From UHGV virus genome UHGV-1966322: a stretch of 22,339 bases of DNA. One strand, given 5' to 3'. The position numbers were made by a program, and so were the translations under genes. Within the stretch, counting starts at the first letter, position 1, and every line of letters begins with the position of its first letter. The notes beneath the pieces were generated by a model that was not told where the DNA came from, made no database searches, and was given only the letters and a program-made list of their open reading frames with translations. Shown here one piece after another: positions 13,972-20,921 of this stretch. Origin of the DNA: a virus.

Positions 13972-14043
13972 GCGCGGCGTTACCGCATACCAATAACGCT
14001 TCACTCGAGGCGTTTTTCGTTATGTATAAATAAGGAGCACACC

Positions 14044-14208
14044 ATGCAATATGCCATTGCAGGGTGGCCTGTTGCTGGCTGCCCTTCCGAATCTTTACTT
14101 GAACGAATCACCCGTAAATTACGTGACGGATGGAAACGCCTTATCGACATACTTAATCAGCCAGGAGTCCCAAAAAATGGACCAAACACTTATGGCTATC
14201 CAGACTAA
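14044..14208 (+). CDS. cIII: cIII (54 aa), FtsH (HflB) protease inhibitor
   Basis: Manual translation [54 protein letters not shown]; under 60 aa, so not in ORF track as such. Confidence 0.9.
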   Translation: MQYAIAGWPVAGCPSESLLERITRKLRDGWKRLIDILNQPGVPKNGPNTYGYPD

Positions 14209-17362: not shown

Positions 17363-17660
17363 GTAGAAGGTGTTATCTCGGATGGAAGTAAGCGTATTGC
17401 TGAACTGGAGGCCTGGGTTGAATACACAAGAGCTGCATACGTAAGAGCAAAAGACAAGGGAGATTTGATCAGAGTTATTACCCGCCAACCAACGGGATTT
17501 TACGCTTACGTACCATGTAATTAGGAATCCTTGAAGTGGCAGCCTAACTGCGGATACACTGAAATGGCGATTTGGTAACATGTTTCGCACAAGGCTGTTA
17601 CTACACTTAGAGATAATCAGCCATGATTAAACGCTTTGTAAAAAGTAAAAGGAAATTACA

Positions 17661-18275
17661 ATGAAAAAATCAATACTAATTTTAGGGCTTACGTTAATTG
17701 TCTCATCTCAAATACCATCGGCAATGGCAAAAAATGAATCAAAACTATGGGTTGTTGTTGATCAAACGGAAAGACATACCTGCCCTTCAAGTAAATGTGG
17801 AGTGGCTGGGAAACTATTTTTCAGGGAAGGCGTAGATTTTCTAGAAAAAAAAGGTGAATGGGTTCGTATAACTGAGCCATATTCAGCCTCATGTGTTGGA
17901 GGGGAAAGCGAATATATTAAAGAAGGTAATAAATCCTGCACAAGAAAAAATGGAATCGTTAATGGCAAGTTTTCAGAATGGGTTAAACTTAGTGATCTTA
18001 GCAGTGAAAGGCCATCAGATCCTGCTGAAAATGCGAGCGGAGATGATACTTTAATCAAAGGATCTGATGACTACCGTATATACAAAAAAGAGTTTTCTTC
18101 GGCAGCTAGGAAGTTAATAAATGAAGGGGTCTGCACGGAAAGCGATTTTAAGGAAATCGGAGGGTGGATGGCATCAAGCAATAAGGGTGAAAACATCTAT
18201 TTCACATATTGCGGAGGAATGACGTTGTCGAACAGAATATACCTAGATGTTAAAAGTGGAAAGACTTTTAGATAA
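17661..18275 (+). CDS. Secreted/periplasmic protein of unknown function (204 aa), AT-rich moron
   Basis: Shine-Dalgarno aaggaaa before the ATG; signal peptide MKKSILILGLTLIVSSQIPSAMA; Cys-containing mature region; visibly AT-rich; intrinsic terminator downstream. Confidence 0.7.
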   Translation: MKKSILILGLTLIVSSQIPSAMAKNESKLWVVVDQTERHTCPSSKCGVAGKLFFREGVDFLEKKGEWVRITEPYSASCVGGESEYIKEGNKSCTRKNGIVNGKFSEWVKLSDLSSERPSDPAENASGDDTLIKGSDDYRIYKKEFSSAARKLINEGVCTESDFKEIGGWMASSNKGENIYFTYCGGMTLSNRIYLDVKSGKTFR

Positions 18276-18345
18276 TATGATATTACCAATGACAGTATTG
18301 ATTTAATGCCTCCATAGAATTATCTCTAGGAAGTAGGTATAAGAA

Positions 18346-18383
18346 AAGCCCGCACAATGAGCTGCTGCGGGCTTTGTGTTATT
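18346..18383 (+). terminator. Intrinsic terminator downstream of the secreted-protein moron
   Basis: aagcccgca...tgcgggctt 9-bp perfect stem followed by tgtgttatt. Confidence 0.6.
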
Positions 18384-18428
18384 CGCCATATTTTATGAAG
18401 CAAATACGACACTATAGATAATTAAGCG

Positions 18429-18530
18429 TTGCTGGTTGTCGATTCCTCAATCACTCCTGTTGATGGCTCTCTTCTTGTATGTGCCATTGAAGGGGAATAT
18501 CGCGTAAAAAGATACCGGAAGTATCCGCGC
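18429..18530 (+). pseudogene. Fragment resembling the C-terminal part of an S24 peptidase (UmuD/LexA/phage-repressor type), lacking the N-terminal catalytic-Ser region
   Basis: Frame reads LLVVDSSITPVDGSLLVCAIEGEYRVKRY, resembling the UmuD segment [29 protein letters not shown]; no start codon or upstream catalytic region; similarity judged by eye. Confidence 0.35.
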
Positions 18531-18568
18531 CGCCATGATTGTCTTTCTCCTGATGCAGGAAAAGCAGA

Positions 18569-18907
18569 ATGGCTAAATCAGCAACAGAGCACAAAGCCGA
18601 TCAGAGAGCCAAGCAAGCATCATCCGGTATGCGTAAGCTGGAGCTTGTACTTGATGCTCAGGAAATTGAAATGCTGGAGCGTAACTGTGCCACGCGTCGC
18701 TTCAGGCGTGCGCCTTGCGAGTTTGGTGAGTACATCGCGTTACTGAGCCGCCAGGATGATGCACGTGTGCGCTGGCGTATAAAATCGATCAGCAGAAAAC
18801 GGTGCGGTAAGTGCGGCGAGAGAGTTCCTGTTAATTCATGCCCGTGTAATGGTGACTCACAATGCTGGGTGACCAAAGGCTGGCACGAAACAAAATTAAT
18901 GATATAA
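18569..18907 (+). CDS. Hypothetical protein (112 aa) with C-terminal Cys-rich zinc-ribbon-like motif
   Basis: ATG preceded by aggaaa; C-terminal CGKCGERVPVNSCPCNGDSQC; no family recognised. Confidence 0.5.
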   Translation: MAKSATEHKADQRAKQASSGMRKLELVLDAQEIEMLERNCATRRFRRAPCEFGEYIALLSRQDDARVRWRIKSISRKRCGKCGERVPVNSCPCNGDSQCWVTKGWHETKLMI

Positions 18908-18935
18908 ATCTCTGTGACATGTCACGGAGGCGGCA

Positions 18936-19364
18936 ATGAAATTAGACCAGCAATATCTAAAAGATCTACTTATCGCATTCGAAAAAACTCGTGGCCCTGA
19001 CACGATGCTTAGTGAACTAGAGGATAATGGCTTTAATAGATATGACCAAGATTTTATTTTCCATATGCGATTATTATGTGACTACGAATTAATAGTCAGG
19101 GTTGATGGAAAACCTGGGTTCGGTCATATATTGTCCAAAGCGTTAGGGGAAGGTGTTGGATATAGTTGGATCGAAGTACCACTGAGGTTGACAGCAAGAG
19201 GGCATGATTTTATTGCTGACTTACGTCAAAAGGATGTCTGGCAAGCTATAAAAACAAACTTTAAGGATGAGGGAATTAGTACACTTATGAGTGTTTCAAA
19301 ATCACTAGCAAAAGGCTTTGCAAGGAAAAAGATAAAAGATATTACAGGAATAGATATTGAATAA
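18936..19364 (+). CDS. Hypothetical protein (142 aa), AT-rich moron
   Basis: Strong Shine-Dalgarno ggagg before the ATG; AT-rich coding sequence; followed by an intrinsic terminator; no family recognised. Confidence 0.65.
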   Translation: MKLDQQYLKDLLIAFEKTRGPDTMLSELEDNGFNRYDQDFIFHMRLLCDYELIVRVDGKPGFGHILSKALGEGVGYSWIEVPLRLTARGHDFIADLRQKDVWQAIKTNFKDEGISTLMSVSKSLAKGFARKKIKDITGIDIE

Positions 19365-19409
19365 TTCTTAGCATCAAGCAACTACTGCCTTTGGTGGAAA
19401 TTATATCTG

Positions 19410-19436
19410 AACTCGCTACGGCGAGTTTTGTTTTAT
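19410..19436 (+). terminator. Intrinsic terminator after the 142-aa gene
   Basis: aactcgc-tacg-gcgagtt hairpin (7-bp stem) followed by ttgttttat. Confidence 0.55.
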
Positions 19437-19447
19437 GGAGATGATAA

Positions 19448-19615
19448 ATGCACTTCCGAGTCACAGGTGAATGGAATGGAGAGCCATTCAACAGGGTTAT
19501 CGAAGCAGAGAACATCAACGACTGTTATAACCACTGGATGATATGGGCGCAGATAGCACATGCAGACGTAACCAATATTCGAATTGAAGAACTGAAAGAA
19601 CACCAAGCCGCCTGA
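19448..19615 (+). CDS. Small protein (55 aa) upstream of xis, lambda orf55-like
   Basis: Manual translation MHFRVTGEWNGEPFNRVIEAENINDCYNHWMIWAQIAHADVTNIRIEELKEHQAA; Shine-Dalgarno ggag upstream; recalled as a conserved small lambda ORF. Confidence 0.6.
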   Translation: MHFRVTGEWNGEPFNRVIEAENINDCYNHWMIWAQIAHADVTNIRIEELKEHQAA

Positions 19616-19630
19616 TGGCGGTTTTTTCTT
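19606..19630 (+). terminator. Hairpin plus T-tract just upstream of xis; candidate N-sensitive intrinsic terminator
   Basis: ccgcc-tgat-ggcgg hairpin followed by ttttttcttg; overlaps the stop of the 55-aa ORF. Confidence 0.5.
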
Positions 19631-19654
19631 GCGTGTAATTGCGGAGACTTTGCG

Positions 19655-19873
19655 ATGTACTTGACACTTCAGGAGTGGAACGCACGCCAGCGACGCCCAA
19701 GAAGCCTTGAAACAGTTCGTCGATGGGTACGCGAGTGCAGGATATTCCCTCCTCCGGTTAAGGATGGAAGAGAGTATCTGTTCCACGAATCAGCGGTAAA
19801 GGTTGACTTAAATCGACCAGTAACAGGTAGCCTTTTGAAGAGGATCAGAAATGGGAAGAAGGCGAAGTCATGA
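19655..19873 (+). CDS. xis: Excisionase Xis (72 aa)
   Basis: Translation MYLTLQEWNARQRRPRSLETVRRWVRECRIFPPPVKDGREYLFHESAVKVDLNRPVTGSLLKRIRNGKKAKS matches lambda Xis from memory. Confidence 0.95.
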   Translation: MYLTLQEWNARQRRPRSLETVRRWVRECRIFPPPVKDGREYLFHESAVKVDLNRPVTGSLLKRIRNGKKAKS

Positions 19874-20921
19874 GCGCCGGGATTTACCCCCTAACCTTTA
19901 TATAAGAAACAATGGATATTACTGCTACAGGGACCCAAGGACGGGTAAAGAGTTTGGATTAGGCAGAGACAGGCGAATCGCAATCACTGAAGCTATACAG
20001 GCCAACATTGAGTTATTTTCAGGACACAAACACAAGCCTCTGACAGCGAGAATCAACAGTGATAATTCCGTTACGTTACATTCATGGCTTGATCGCTACG
20101 AAAAAATCCTGGCCAGCAGAGGAATCAAGCAGAAGACACTCATAAATTACATGAGCAAAATTAAAGCAATAAGGAGGGGTCTGCCTGATGCTCCACTTGA
20201 AGACATCACCACAAAAGAAATTGCGGCAATGCTCAATGGATACATAGACGAGGGCAAGGCGGCGTCAGCCAAGTTAATCAGATCAACACTGAGCGATGCA
20301 TTCCGAGAGGCAATAGCTGAAGGCCATATAACAACAAACCCTGTCGCTGCCACTCGCGCAGCAAAATCAGAGGTAAGGAGATCAAGACTTACGGCTGACG
20401 AATACCTGAAAATTTATCAAGCAGCAGAATCATCACCATGTTGGCTCAGACTTGCAATGGAACTGGCTGTTGTTACCGGGCAACGAGTTGGTGATTTATG
20501 CGAAATGAAGTGGTCTGATATCGTAGATGGATATCTTTATGTCGAGCAAAGCAAAACAGGCGTAAAAATTGCCATCCCAACAGCATTGCATGTTGATGCT
20601 CTCGGAATATCAATGAAGGAAACACTTGATAAATGCAAAGAGATTCTTGGCGGAGAAACCATAATTGCATCTACTCGTCGCGAACCGCTTTCATCCGGCA
20701 CAGTATCAAGGTATTTTATGCGCGCACGAAAAGCATCAGGTCTTTCCTTCGAAGGGGATCCGCCTACCTTTCACGAGTTGCGCAGTTTGTCTGCAAGACT
20801 CTATGAGAAGCAGATAAGCGATAAGTTTGCTCAACATCTTCTCGGGCATAAGTCGGACACCATGGCATCACAGTATCGTGATGACAGAGGCAGGGAGTGG
20901 GACAAAATTGAAATCAAATAA
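19851..20921 (+). CDS. int: Integrase Int (356 aa), tyrosine recombinase
   Basis: Translation MGRRRSHERRDLPPNLYIRNNGYYCYRDPRTGKEFGLGRDRRIAITEAIQANIELFSGHKHKPLTARINSDNSVTLHSWLDRYEKILASRGIKQKT... matches lambda Int from memory; overlaps xis as in lambda. Confidence 0.95.
   Translation: MGRRRSHERRDLPPNLYIRNNGYYCYRDPRTGKEFGLGRDRRIAITEAIQANIELFSGHKHKPLTARINSDNSVTLHSWLDRYEKILASRGIKQKTLINYMSKIKAIRRGLPDAPLEDITTKEIAAMLNGYIDEGKAASAKLIRSTLSDAFREAIAEGHITTNPVAATRAAKSEVRRSRLTADEYLKIYQAAESSPCWLRLAMELAVVTGQRVGDLCEMKWSDIVDGYLYVEQSKTGVKIAIPTALHVDALGISMKETLDKCKEILGGETIIASTRREPLSSGTVSRYFMRARKASGLSFEGDPPTFHELRSLSARLYEKQISDKFAQHLLGHKSDTMASQYRDDRGREWDKIEIK

What the first reader, a model, noticed from the sequence alone, without database searches (positions are those of the whole stretch)
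18936..19436. Second AT-rich moron (142 aa) with its own terminator
This ORF has a strong ggagg Shine-Dalgarno sequence, visibly AT-rich composition, and an intrinsic terminator immediately downstream (19410-19436). It lies in the variable accessory region between exo and xis, where lambda carries its ea genes. No signal peptide and no recognisable catalytic motif. It may act alone or with the upstream 112-aa zinc-ribbon protein (18569-18907).
Basis: partly seen in the sequence, partly recalled or inferred. Interest (0 to 1): 0.45.

Follow-up and report, generated by a model that had tools for sequence, protein, structure and literature searches.

The report
Stand-alone DUF2513 winged-helix cargo gene
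The 142-codon gene is real and encodes a small winged-helix binding protein of the uncharacterised DUF2513 family, an exchangeable accessory gene of a lambda-like E. coli prophage whose domain is elsewhere fused to phage-defence killer domains; it is catalogued but its function has never been tested.

Summary
An intact 142-aa ORF (18936-19364) has a GGAGG Shine-Dalgarno 5 nt upstream, 36% GC and a downstream hairpin plus T-run. It lies in the exo-xis accessory part of the pL operon of a lambdoid prophage at attB-lambda.

It is not anonymous. It passes Pfam DUF2513 (PF10711) and RefSeq already annotates it that way. AlphaFold2 (pLDDT 93) gives a PadR/MarR-like winged helix plus three C-terminal helices, with no close solved relative.

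The family (about 1,400 clusters at 50% identity) is almost always a stand-alone gene of 115-145 aa with no conserved neighbour. It sits at several different places in temperate-phage early regions and, in one Vibrio locus, is an integron cassette. A minority of relatives fuse the domain to TIR or TIR-like domains, or to AbiTi-like tails.

The "own" terminator is backbone, identical in over 1,000 E. coli genomes that lack the gene. The upstream 112-aa gene is a frequent but not obligate neighbour. A conserved 12-bp palindrome after that gene marks a slot holding alternative cargo genes.

Best reading: a non-enzymatic recognition module with an accessory, probably conflict-related, role. Function is untested and interest is modest.

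The parts
18936..19364 (+). CDS for the 142-aa stand-alone DUF2513 winged-helix protein (stop codon included)
   Evidence: ORF list and translation. Pfam PF10711 E 8.6e-11, 42.5 bits vs cut-off 29.6, covering profile positions 1-100 of 100. phrog_585 E 2e-34. RefSeq WP_000762731.1 is annotated 'DUF2513 domain-containing protein'. AF2 pLDDT 93.
18926..18930 (+). Shine-Dalgarno GGAGG, 5 nt before the ATG
   Evidence: Read directly from the sequence. GGAG is kept in most homologous leaders of the clade at 61% identity or more.
18914..18925 (.). Perfect 12-bp palindrome GTGACATGTCAC. It belongs to the upstream 112-aa gene module and marks the start of a variable cargo slot.
   Evidence: Single perfect copy in the window. 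Found 0-10 nt after the 112-aa gene's stop in 39 of 44 distinct loci, whatever gene follows.
18909..18930 (+). Possible mRNA hairpin (UCUCUGUGA/UCACGGAGG) that would pair the Shine-Dalgarno in read-through transcripts
   Evidence: RNA fold -10.8 kcal/mol, z -2.7. The outer pairs are not conserved in E. mori or C. freundii homologues, so support is weak.
18880..18908 (+). Candidate sigma-70 promoter: CTGGCA (18880-18885), 17-nt spacer with TG at 18900-18901, then TATAAA (18903-18908), overlapping the stop codon of the 112-aa gene
   Evidence: Read from the sequence. Not reported by the scan because the last base of the -10 hexamer is not T. The Serratia orthologous leader CTGGCA-17-TATAGT is reported. 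The segment is retained at four different left junctions that lack the 112-aa gene. This is an inference, not shown.
18569..18907 (+). 112-aa gene (phrog_536 'transcriptional regulator'; C-terminal CxxC...CxC...C motif); frequent but not obligate upstream neighbour
   Evidence: phrog_536 E 7e-48 over the full length. Weak NCBIfam match to the LexA-regulated protein, E 0.007. No Pfam or PDB match. Co-occurrence counts.
19409..19434 (+). Intrinsic-terminator-like hairpin plus T-run; part of the conserved backbone upstream of the 55-aa gene, not part of the cargo
   Evidence: Scan and fold. Window 19401-19440 is identical in over 1,000 E. coli genomes lacking the gene. Alignment with E. coli B and O157 loci.
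18429..18536 (+). umuD-like pseudogene fragment marking the left recombination scar of the imported module
   Evidence: RefSeq annotates it 'DNA repair protein, incomplete'. The Chlobot record calls the overlapping 105-codon ORF 'UmuD-like'.
19448..19615 (+). 55-aa gene (phrog_676) followed by a second terminator-like hairpin at 19605-19624; backbone gene just before xis
   Evidence: the same gene occurs in E. coli B.
19655..20921 (+). xis (19655-19873) and lambda-type int (19851-20921), followed by host ybhC
   Evidence: Pfam Exc E 4e-41; Phage_integrase and the lambda Arm-DNA-binding domain; RefSeq context.

Best explanation
The ORF is an intact gene for a stand-alone DUF2513 protein. The protein has a PadR/MarR-like winged-helix core (residues 1-98), which is acidic, followed by three helices, the last long and basic.

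It is one of several alternative cargo genes that occupy a variable slot. That slot lies directly downstream of a conserved 112-aa regulator-like gene and its invariant palindrome GTGACATGTCAC. In this window the whole module has been recombined into the exo-xis accessory region of a lambda-like prophage at attB-lambda.

Shown:
- family membership
- the fold
- mobility without a fixed partner
- long-term purifying selection
- re-use of the same domain as the N-terminal part of proteins whose C-terminal part is a TIR, TIR-like or AbiTi-like domain

Inferred:
- The protein has no enzymatic activity and works by stoichiometric binding, probably as a dimer. The proposed binding face is helix 3 (F-x-F-H), the last wing strand and helix 4 (R-L-T-x-x-G-H-D-F).
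- It is made from the N-antiterminated pL early transcript and possibly from a weak promoter overlapping the stop codon of the 112-aa gene.
- Its role is accessory and conflict-related. It would bind and mask or block a conserved infection-associated ligand (nucleic acid, nucleotide or protein). It is not part of the phage's core lysis-lysogeny circuit.
For: Identity:
- Pfam PF10711 above the gathering score over the whole profile, phrog_585 and the RefSeq annotation.

Fold:
- AF2 pLDDT 93 and pTM 0.83, with the order H-H-H, four-stranded wing, H-H-H.
- Foldseek best hit is the PadR-like 5h20, E 0.03.

Stand-alone and mobile:
- 1,426 clusters at 50% identity, nearly all 115-145 aa.
- No neighbour is conserved across 59 species loci.
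- Nearest neighbours of 57 of those loci are heterogeneous.
- Prophage positions differ: the nin region in C. freundii, near int in Serratia, after dnaB and before terS in Cronobacter.
- It is an integron cassette between VCR-like attC repeats in Vibrio proteolyticus. V. vulnificus homologues lie in same-strand arrays of small ORFs, which is consistent with cassettes, but no attC repeats were checked there.

Cargo slot:
- The palindrome follows the 112-aa gene in 39 of 44 distinct loci, with different genes or none downstream.

Foreign origin and selection:
- GC 0.364 against 0.504 for the neighbouring gene.
- dN/dS 0.07 at 72% identity, with dS saturated.

Recognition-module role:
- 39% identity over 133 aa to the N-terminus of P0189, which continues into a CAP12/PycTIR-type TIR domain. 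Seven clusters show this fusion within a TIR family whose N-termini are highly variable.
- Other fusions are to a ThsB-like TIR (P0293), to a domain matching the PADLOC candidate PDC-S60 and weakly DUF4062 (P0255), and to AbiTi-like tails (P0262, P0173, P0253).
- DUF4062 is reported to be a defence NADase (bioRxiv 10.64898/2026.09.04.749371).

Argument against a classical operator-binding repressor:
- The winged-helix part has a median pI of 4.7 and a net charge of -7 across the family.
- The same helix-3 and helix-4 motif is conserved across phyla with no linked target gene.
Against: - No experiment exists for any family member. Literature searches for DUF2513 and PF10711 found nothing relevant.
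- There is no PADLOC hit for the stand-alone protein.
- Chromosomal homologues are not clearly enriched next to defence genes. Only 2-3 of 57 loci have Type I R-M genes as nearest neighbours.
- Fusions to effector domains are a minority, about 10 of the best 150 representatives. The PF10137-type (P0189-like) fusions traced back come almost entirely from environmental metagenome collections, and the origin of the other fusion types was not examined. None was seen from Enterobacteria.
- An N-terminal winged helix fused to an effector could equally be a DNA-binding autoregulatory domain.
- Overall acidity does not exclude a local basic DNA-binding patch. K/R9 and R84 are conserved.
- Dimerisation and the binding face were not modelled.
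Confidence: 0.45

Rival explanations
1. It is an ordinary sequence-specific transcription factor. A PadR/MarR-like dimeric repressor would bind an inverted repeat, possibly at its own promoter and at host or phage promoters, and tune gene expression in the lysogen or early in infection.
For: - The winged-helix fold is closest to PadR, MarR and HxlR regulators.
- It has a PadR-like sequence pattern, H-x-x-L-L-x-D-x-x-L-I then R-L-T-x-x-G-x-x-F.
- Position 45 of the putative recognition helix varies among R, Q and K between clades, as expected if specificities differ.
- A palindrome sits between the candidate promoter and the Shine-Dalgarno.
- A second clade has a different conserved leader with a TGnGATAAT element.
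Against: - The palindrome travels with the 112-aa gene, not with DUF2513. It is present after that gene in phages lacking DUF2513 and absent from some DUF2513 leaders.
- There is no second copy of the site in the window.
- No target gene is linked in any context. The V. proteolyticus homologue is an integron cassette, a setting in which a regulator would arrive without its target.
- The domain is strongly acidic.
- No Pfam PadR or MarR match appears even at E = 1.
Confidence: 0.3
2. It is the second component of a two-gene system with the upstream 112-aa zinc-ribbon protein, for example a regulator-effector or toxin-antitoxin-like pair, and needs that partner to act.
For: - The pair is adjacent with the same spacing, the upstream gene ending 28-32 nt before the ATG, in E. 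coli, Cronobacter, Yersinia and many IMG/VR contigs.
- Divergence of the two genes is roughly parallel in several lineages.
- DUF2513 loci that lack the 112-aa gene still keep its last 45 nt or so.
Against: - 54 of 55 deposited phages with the 112-aa gene lack DUF2513.
- In complete E. coli genomes the counts are 513 against 167.
- DUF2513 occurs without it in the nin region, near int, in an integron cassette and on chromosomes of many phyla.
- Other cargo genes, or none, occupy the same slot.
- GC is 0.504 against 0.364.
- At most, the evidence fits regulatory coupling through the palindrome.
Confidence: 0.08
3. It is a decaying passenger with no current function in this prophage.
For: - Many host genomes carry this prophage as a defective remnant.
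- Close E. coli alleles show dN/dS of 0.4-0.7 on few substitutions.
- IS insertions and truncated copies exist.
Against: - The gene is intact and identical in the isolated phage Chlobot.
- The full-length ORF is kept in 167 complete E. coli genomes.
- Purifying selection is strong at larger distance.
- The Shine-Dalgarno is conserved.
Confidence: 0.05

Closest known systems
Pfam DUF2513 (PF10711) / PHROG 585
   Same: Full-length match above the curated threshold. It shares the family signature M-K-x-D-x-x-Y-L-K, F-H-x-x-L-L-x-D, R-L-T-x-x-G-H-D-F and V-W. It has the same length and the same stand-alone architecture as most members.
   Different: Nothing structural differs; it is a typical member. 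The family itself has no assigned function, so membership does not explain what the protein does.
PadR-family (short, subfamily-2 type) and MarR/HxlR winged-helix regulators, e.g. PDB 5h20, 2hr3, 5h3r
   Different: Only the 75-90 residue core superposes (TM 0.53 or less, E 0.03 or worse). No HMM-level similarity to PadR or MarR. The wing has four strands with insertions, the domain is acidic, and there is no adjacent regulated gene.
Lambda exo-xis region genes (orf60a, orf63, orf61, orf73, ea22, ea8.5)
   Same: Same genomic compartment and, by position, the same early pL transcription. Those genes are non-essential accessory genes that influence lysogenisation and induction (PMC3824215, PMC8614690).
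   Different: No sequence relationship. This gene is not part of the conserved exo-xis set but an imported AT-rich cargo, present in only about 3% of complete E. coli genomes.
Variable N-terminal domains of TIR-type single-protein defence candidates (PF10137 CAP12/PycTIR-type TIR proteins, ThsB-like TIR, PADLOC PDC-S35/S60/S66) and AbiTi-like proteins
   Same: The DUF2513 domain is itself one of these N-terminal domains (39% identity over 133 aa to P0189).
   Different: The window protein has no effector domain and gives no PADLOC hit. Whether the N-terminal domain senses, regulates or merely oligomerises in the fusions is unknown.
Anti-CRISPR/aca-type loci (conserved small regulator plus operator plus variable cargo)
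   Same: A conserved DNA-binding-type small gene (the 112-aa gene) and an invariant palindrome flank a slot with exchangeable small genes of unknown function.
   Different: The gene order is reversed: the regulator is upstream and the palindrome lies at its 3' end. None of the cargo genes is a known anti-defence gene. Binding of the 112-aa protein to the palindrome is untested. The resemblance is recalled from general knowledge, not tested here.

Membership tests
Pfam DUF2513 (PF10711) | HMM score above the curated gathering threshold over most of the profile | tested here: met
   42.5 bits vs 29.6, protein residues 2-115 on profile positions 1-100 of 100. All 39 aligned homologues also match.
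Pfam DUF2513 (PF10711) | Family signature residues (R84 L85 T86 G89 F92 W102 invariant; H43 and H90 nearly invariant) and the stand-alone size of about 115-145 aa | tested here: met
   Alignments A1 and A4 and the length distribution.
PadR / MarR transcription regulators | Sequence-profile membership (Pfam PadR PF03551 or MarR PF01047/PF12802) | tested here: not met
   Neither the window protein (E up to 0.1) nor any of the 39 family members (E up to 1) gives a PadR or MarR match.
PadR / MarR transcription regulators | Winged-helix fold with a C-terminal dimerisation helix | tested here: inconclusive
PadR / MarR transcription regulators | Binds an inverted-repeat operator next to a regulated gene | not testable with these tools
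   The only nearby palindrome belongs to the 112-aa gene module. Testing needs EMSA or ChIP.
Moron (extra gene with its own promoter and terminator, inserted between genes adjacent in related phages, with deviant composition) | Inserted between genes that are adjacent in a related phage | tested here: met
   Cronobacter prophages have 112-aa gene, DUF2513, terS. TL-2011b and E. coli SF-468 have 112-aa gene then terS. In the window the whole 112-aa plus DUF2513 module replaces the ASCH gene seen in E. coli B.
Moron | Deviant base composition | tested here: met
   GC 0.364 and GC3 0.287, against a window GC of 0.469.
Moron | Own terminator | tested here: not met
   The hairpin at 19409-19428 is identical in over 1,000 E. 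coli genomes without the gene and follows a different gene there. Homologues in other contexts are also followed by hairpins, but of different sequence.
Moron | Own promoter, with expression from the repressed prophage | tested here: inconclusive
   The candidate CTGGCA-17-TGaTATAAA (18880-18908) is not called by the scan. The Serratia version CTGGCA-17-TATAGT is called. The segment is retained at four independent junctions. Expression itself is not testable here.
Obligate two-gene system with the 112-aa protein | Consistent co-occurrence in both directions | tested here: not met
   1 of 55 phages with the 112-aa gene has DUF2513. E. coli genome counts are 513 against 167. Only 3 of the 60 loci then held, counting L001, the E. 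coli prophage locus identical to the window, have the 112-aa gene.
Known anti-phage defence systems (PADLOC-DB 2.0) | HMM match to a component of a known or candidate system | tested here: not met
   No hit at E up to 1 for the 142-aa, 112-aa, 204-aa or 55-aa proteins. Only C-terminal effector parts of fused relatives match.
Integron gene cassette | ORF bounded by attC recombination sites within a same-strand cassette array | tested here: not met
   Not the case in the window, which is prophage context. It is met by the 43%-identical Vibrio proteolyticus homologue, which lies between two of 10 VCR-like repeats.

The most novel reading that the evidence does not exclude
The stand-alone DUF2513 proteins of temperate phages could be effector-less copies of a defence sensor domain. 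They would act as decoys or sponges. Made early from pL, they would sequester the same trigger or signal that DUF2513-TIR, DUF4062-like or AbiT-like fusion proteins detect, or poison those proteins by mixed oligomers. That would make them a new anti-defence family. In addition, the 112-aa gene plus the GTGACATGTCAC palindrome could be a portable regulated expression slot, comparable to aca loci, that would serve as a marker for finding further such cargo genes.
Probability: 0.12. Interest if true: 0.75.

Novelty: new member of a known kind. Interest (0 to 1): 0.35.

Why it matters
By itself the gene is an already catalogued member of a domain-of-unknown-function family, so the finding as written is ordinary.

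What the follow-up adds is a set of testable leads for a family of about 1,400 clusters that no paper addresses:
- The domain is a self-sufficient mobile unit, found as phage early-region cargo in at least five positions and as an integron cassette in Vibrio proteolyticus.
- It is re-used as the N-terminal domain of TIR-type and AbiT-like proteins, which points to a recognition role in phage-host conflict.
- In enterobacterial phages it preferentially sits in a slot defined by a conserved small regulator-like gene and an invariant palindrome.

An isolated phage, Chlobot, carries the identical module, so deletion and challenge experiments are straightforward.

Tried and rejected
- **PDB sequence search.** A single-sequence hit to a 'bacteriocin' chain (9e5e, E 0.87) looked suggestive around the RLTxxGxDF motif. 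It disappeared with the family profile, so I rejected it as chance.
- **Palindrome as the protein's own operator.** I first read GTGACATGTCAC as an autoregulatory operator of DUF2513. I rejected this because the site follows the 112-aa gene in phages without DUF2513.
- **Conserved partner gene.** All-against-all BLAST of neighbours in 59 species loci found none. Pfam and PADLOC scans of 112 nearest neighbours gave only scattered hits.
- **Alternative cargo genes in the slot.** The 70-aa, 145-aa and 74-aa proteins and a UmuD-like protein gave no functional annotation.
- **AFDB50 fold search.** It was unavailable. The BFVD search returned only uncharacterised viral proteins.
- **Literature.** 'DUF2513' returned one irrelevant paper and 'PF10711' none.
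- **Rfam and tRNA scans.** Nothing lies in or near the locus.
- **Structure of the 112-aa protein.** I did not predict it, because no fold-search jobs remained. Its 'zinc ribbon' rests on the CxxC...CxC...C motif only.

Full report
**1. The observation.** The window carries the left (pL) arm of a lambdoid prophage integrated at attB-lambda.
- The lambda cIII thermoregulator RNA lies at 14031-14089 on the + strand.
- It is followed by gam/bet/exo, a set of small exo-xis ORFs, xis (19655-19873), a lambda-type int (19851-20921) and host ybhC.
- The segment 17400-20000 is 100% identical in many E. coli chromosomes and in the isolated phage Chlobot.
- The reported ORF runs from 18936 to 19364 (142 aa). 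GGAGG lies at 18926-18930, 5 nt before the ATG.
- ORF GC is 0.364 (GC3 0.287), against 0.469 for the window and 0.504 for the gene just upstream.
- An 8-bp hairpin at 19409-19428 followed by TTTTGTTTTAT is called terminator-like. The 41-nt stretch 19400-19440 folds at -12.1 kcal/mol, z = -3.7.

**2. What the protein is.**
- It is not anonymous. It matches Pfam DUF2513 (PF10711) above the gathering score over the whole profile and PHROG 585. RefSeq already names it 'DUF2513 domain-containing protein'.
- It has no PADLOC, NCBIfam or PDB sequence match.
- An AlphaFold2 model built on 39 homologues is confident (pLDDT 93, pTM 0.83). It shows three helices, a four-stranded wing, then three further helices, the last spanning residues 114-137.
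- Foldseek's best hit is a PadR-like protein at E 0.03. Viral structure predictions give only uncharacterised matches.
- The sequence pattern F-H-x-x-L-L-x-D-x-x-L-I ... R-L-T-x-x-G-H-D-F parallels the PadR helix-3 and wing/helix-4 pattern. This parallel is my own knowledge of PadR. No PadR or MarR profile matches, for the window protein at E up to 0.1 or for any of the 39 aligned members at E up to 1.
- The winged-helix part is acidic throughout the family (median pI 4.7, net charge -7). The C-terminal helices are basic.

**3. Family and contexts.**
- An exhaustive profile search finds 1,426 clusters at 50% identity (273 at E 1e-10 or better). Almost all are 115-145 aa.
- Relatives occur in Gamma-, Beta- and Alphaproteobacteria, Bacteroidota, Bacillota, Gemmatimonadota, Acidobacteriota and others.
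- No neighbouring gene is conserved across 59 species loci. Pfam and PADLOC scans of the two nearest genes of 57 of those loci give a scatter of housekeeping, phage and a few Type I R-M genes.
- In Enterobacterales the gene lies in temperate-phage early regions, at different places:
  - the nin region between a dATP/dGTP pyrophosphohydrolase gene and dinI/rusA/Q in C. freundii
  - near int after a methylase in Serratia
  - after dnaB in another Serratia phage
  - immediately before terS in Cronobacter
  - in the exo-xis region in this window
- In Vibrio proteolyticus a 43%-identical homologue is an integron cassette lying between two of ten VCR-like attC repeats. V. vulnificus copies lie in similar arrays of small same-strand ORFs, but no attC repeats were checked there.
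- The gene is under strong purifying selection at distance (dN/dS 0.07 at 72% identity, with dS saturated). Close E. coli alleles differ mainly at wing positions 66-75.
- It is present in 167 of 5,426 complete E. coli genomes.

**4. Relation to the 112-aa gene.**
- The upstream ORF (18569-18907) is a full-length member of PHROG 536 ('transcriptional regulator'). It carries a C-terminal CxxC...CxC...C motif and has a weak match to the LexA-regulated protein.
- It is adjacent to DUF2513, ending 28-32 nt before the ATG, in E. coli, Cronobacter, Yersinia and many IMG/VR contigs.
- The pairing is not obligate. It occurs in 55 deposited phages, only one of which (Chlobot) has DUF2513. It occurs in 513 complete E. 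coli genomes against 167 for DUF2513.
- Its 3' end is followed within 0-10 nt by a perfect palindrome, GTGACATGTCAC (window 18914-18925), in 39 of 44 distinct loci. This holds although the protein diverges to 47% identity, and whatever lies downstream: DUF2513, a 70-aa PHROG 1541 gene, a 145-aa PHROG 2266 gene, a UmuD-like gene, ninB, or just a terminator and terS.
- So the palindrome belongs to the 112-aa module, and the position after it is a variable cargo slot.
- DUF2513 loci that lack the 112-aa gene (E. mori, C. freundii, Serratia, contig L116) still keep its last 45 nt or so plus the palindrome. Their four different left junctions all fall a few bases upstream of CTGGCA.
- In alleles followed by DUF2513, the stop-codon region reads TATAAA or TATAGT exactly 17 nt after CTGGCA, with TG at -15/-14 in the window. 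Alleles without DUF2513 lack this hexamer.
- The scan tool calls the Serratia version a promoter-like site but not the window version, whose hexamer ends in A.
- I therefore treat an own promoter at 18880-18908 as a candidate only.
- In read-through RNA the palindrome and its flanks can form a 9-bp hairpin pairing the Shine-Dalgarno (-10.8 kcal/mol, z -2.7). The outer pairs are not conserved.

**5. The terminator.** Window 19401-19440, including the hairpin, is identical in over 1,000 E. coli genomes that lack the gene, for example E. coli B and O157:H7. There it follows an ASCH-domain gene and precedes the 55-aa gene or another small gene, then xis. It is part of the recipient backbone, not of the imported cargo. 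The right junction lies between the stop codon at 19364 and about 19400. Homologues elsewhere are also followed by hairpins, but of unrelated sequence.

**6. A lead on function.**
- About 10 of the best 150 family representatives are longer than the stand-alone form.
- P0189 is 39% identical to the window protein over 133 residues and continues into a CAP12/PycTIR-type TIR domain. Seven clusters have this architecture. They sit inside a very large TIR family whose C-terminal domain is conserved while the N-terminus is highly variable.
- P0293 carries a ThsB-like TIR domain. P0255 carries a domain matching the PADLOC candidate PDC-S60 and, weakly, DUF4062. P0262, P0173 and P0253 carry AbiTi-like tails.
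- DUF4062 has recently been reported as a defence NADase (bioRxiv 10.64898/2026.09.04.749371).
- The DUF2513 unit is thus repeatedly used as the N-terminal part of sensor-effector-type proteins.
- The window protein is the effector-less form.

**7. Interpretation.**
- Shown: a real, conserved, mobile, stand-alone winged-helix protein with no enzymatic domain, carried as exchangeable cargo.
- Inferred, at about 0.45 confidence: it acts by stoichiometric binding of a conserved infection-related ligand in a conflict-type accessory role, and is expressed with the pL early transcript.
- Main rival, about 0.3: a plain PadR/MarR-like repressor. Against it stand the lack of any linked target, the integron-cassette setting in V. 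proteolyticus, the acidity and the cross-phylum conservation of the putative binding face.
- An obligate two-gene system with the 112-aa protein is unlikely (about 0.08). Regulatory coupling through the palindrome remains possible.
- A decaying passenger is unlikely (about 0.05).
- The most novel reading still open is a phage-encoded decoy or sponge derived from a defence sensor domain. I put it at about 0.12, because none of the effector fusions I traced comes from Enterobacteria and the stand-alone gene is not clearly defence-island associated.

**8. Verdict.** The finding is correct as an observation and partly correct as an interpretation. The gene is a typical member of a catalogued but unstudied family. 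No paper in the library deals with it. Interest is modest. It rests on the effector fusions and on the cargo slot marked by the 112-aa gene and its palindrome, both directly testable in phage Chlobot.

Noticed in passing
window 18914-18925; also L155 2836, L156 2788, L157 2836 and about 39 of 44 distinct loci: The perfect palindrome GTGACATGTCAC is conserved immediately after the stop codon of the 112-aa PHROG 536 gene. This holds across phages in which the protein itself has diverged to 47% identity, and whatever gene follows. It may be that protein's binding site or a module-boundary recombination site.
   Followed up: partly
L198 672 and 3123; L236 2836 and 5287; L214 917 and 3368: In epsilon15/TL-2011b-like contigs a second copy of the same palindrome lies about 75 nt after the terminase large-subunit ORF. 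The two copies therefore bracket the cargo slot plus terS and terL.
   Followed up: no
window 18429-18536 (ORF 18429-18746): A umuD-like fragment of about 36 codons abuts the 112-aa gene. RefSeq marks it as a pseudogene. The Chlobot record annotates the whole out-of-frame 105-codon ORF as 'UmuD-like protein' and only the last 46 codons of the real 112-aa gene, which looks like a mis-annotation. In a Klebsiella phage (L157) an intact UmuD-like gene lies downstream of the 112-aa gene.
   Followed up: partly
window 17661-18275: This is presumably the 'first' AT-rich moron of the region: a 204-aa ORF (GC 0.379). It matches PHROG 8310 over its full length. It has only weak hints of a lipoprotein signal and an SH3 domain, and no PADLOC hit.
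   Followed up: partly
window 19401-19440; L241 2501-2537; L242 2501-2540: The terminator-like hairpin and its flanks are identical in over 1,000 complete E. coli genomes. There they follow an ASCH-domain gene that ends with a second hairpin, so tandem terminators precede the small gene upstream of xis.
   Followed up: yes
L020 1959-2650 (Vibrio proteolyticus); L238-L240 (V. vulnificus): The DUF2513 homologue in L020 is an integron gene cassette bounded by VCR-like attC repeats, of which 10 copies lie in 7.6 kb. In V. vulnificus the gene sits in same-strand arrays of small unrelated ORFs; attC repeats were not checked there.
   Followed up: partly
P0189, P0308-P0312, P0316, P0293, P0255, P0262, P0173, P0253: The DUF2513 domain is fused at its C-terminus to CAP12/PycTIR-type TIR domains, a ThsB-like TIR domain, a PDC-S60/DUF4062-like domain or AbiTi-like tails. 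The P0189-like fusions that I traced back come almost entirely from environmental metagenome collections.
   Followed up: partly
L080 1-127 (IMG/VR); H19 and H20: In L080 the sequence abutting the Shine-Dalgarno in place of the palindrome looks, from memory, like an IS1 end. Other E. coli genomes carry annotated IS1 or IS5 transposase genes inside the 17400-20000 segment.
   Followed up: no
L009, L013-L016, L145-L154, about 35-70 nt upstream of the DUF2513 ATG: A second clade of homologues (45-50% identity) shares a different conserved leader. It has GGCATTCAC..GTGCC followed by a TGnGATAAT-type -10-like element, and in L009 and L013 it is preceded by the upstream gene's terminator. That is a more classical moron layout.
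   Followed up: partly
window 14031-14089: There is a full-length match to the lambda cIII thermoregulator RNA element (Rfam RF01804, 88.5 bits), which confirms the orientation of the pL operon.
   Followed up: yes
L107, L108 (IMG/VR) residues 136-142 of the homologue: An E. coli allele differs from the window protein only in its last seven residues, suggesting a frameshift or alternative 3' end.
   Followed up: no
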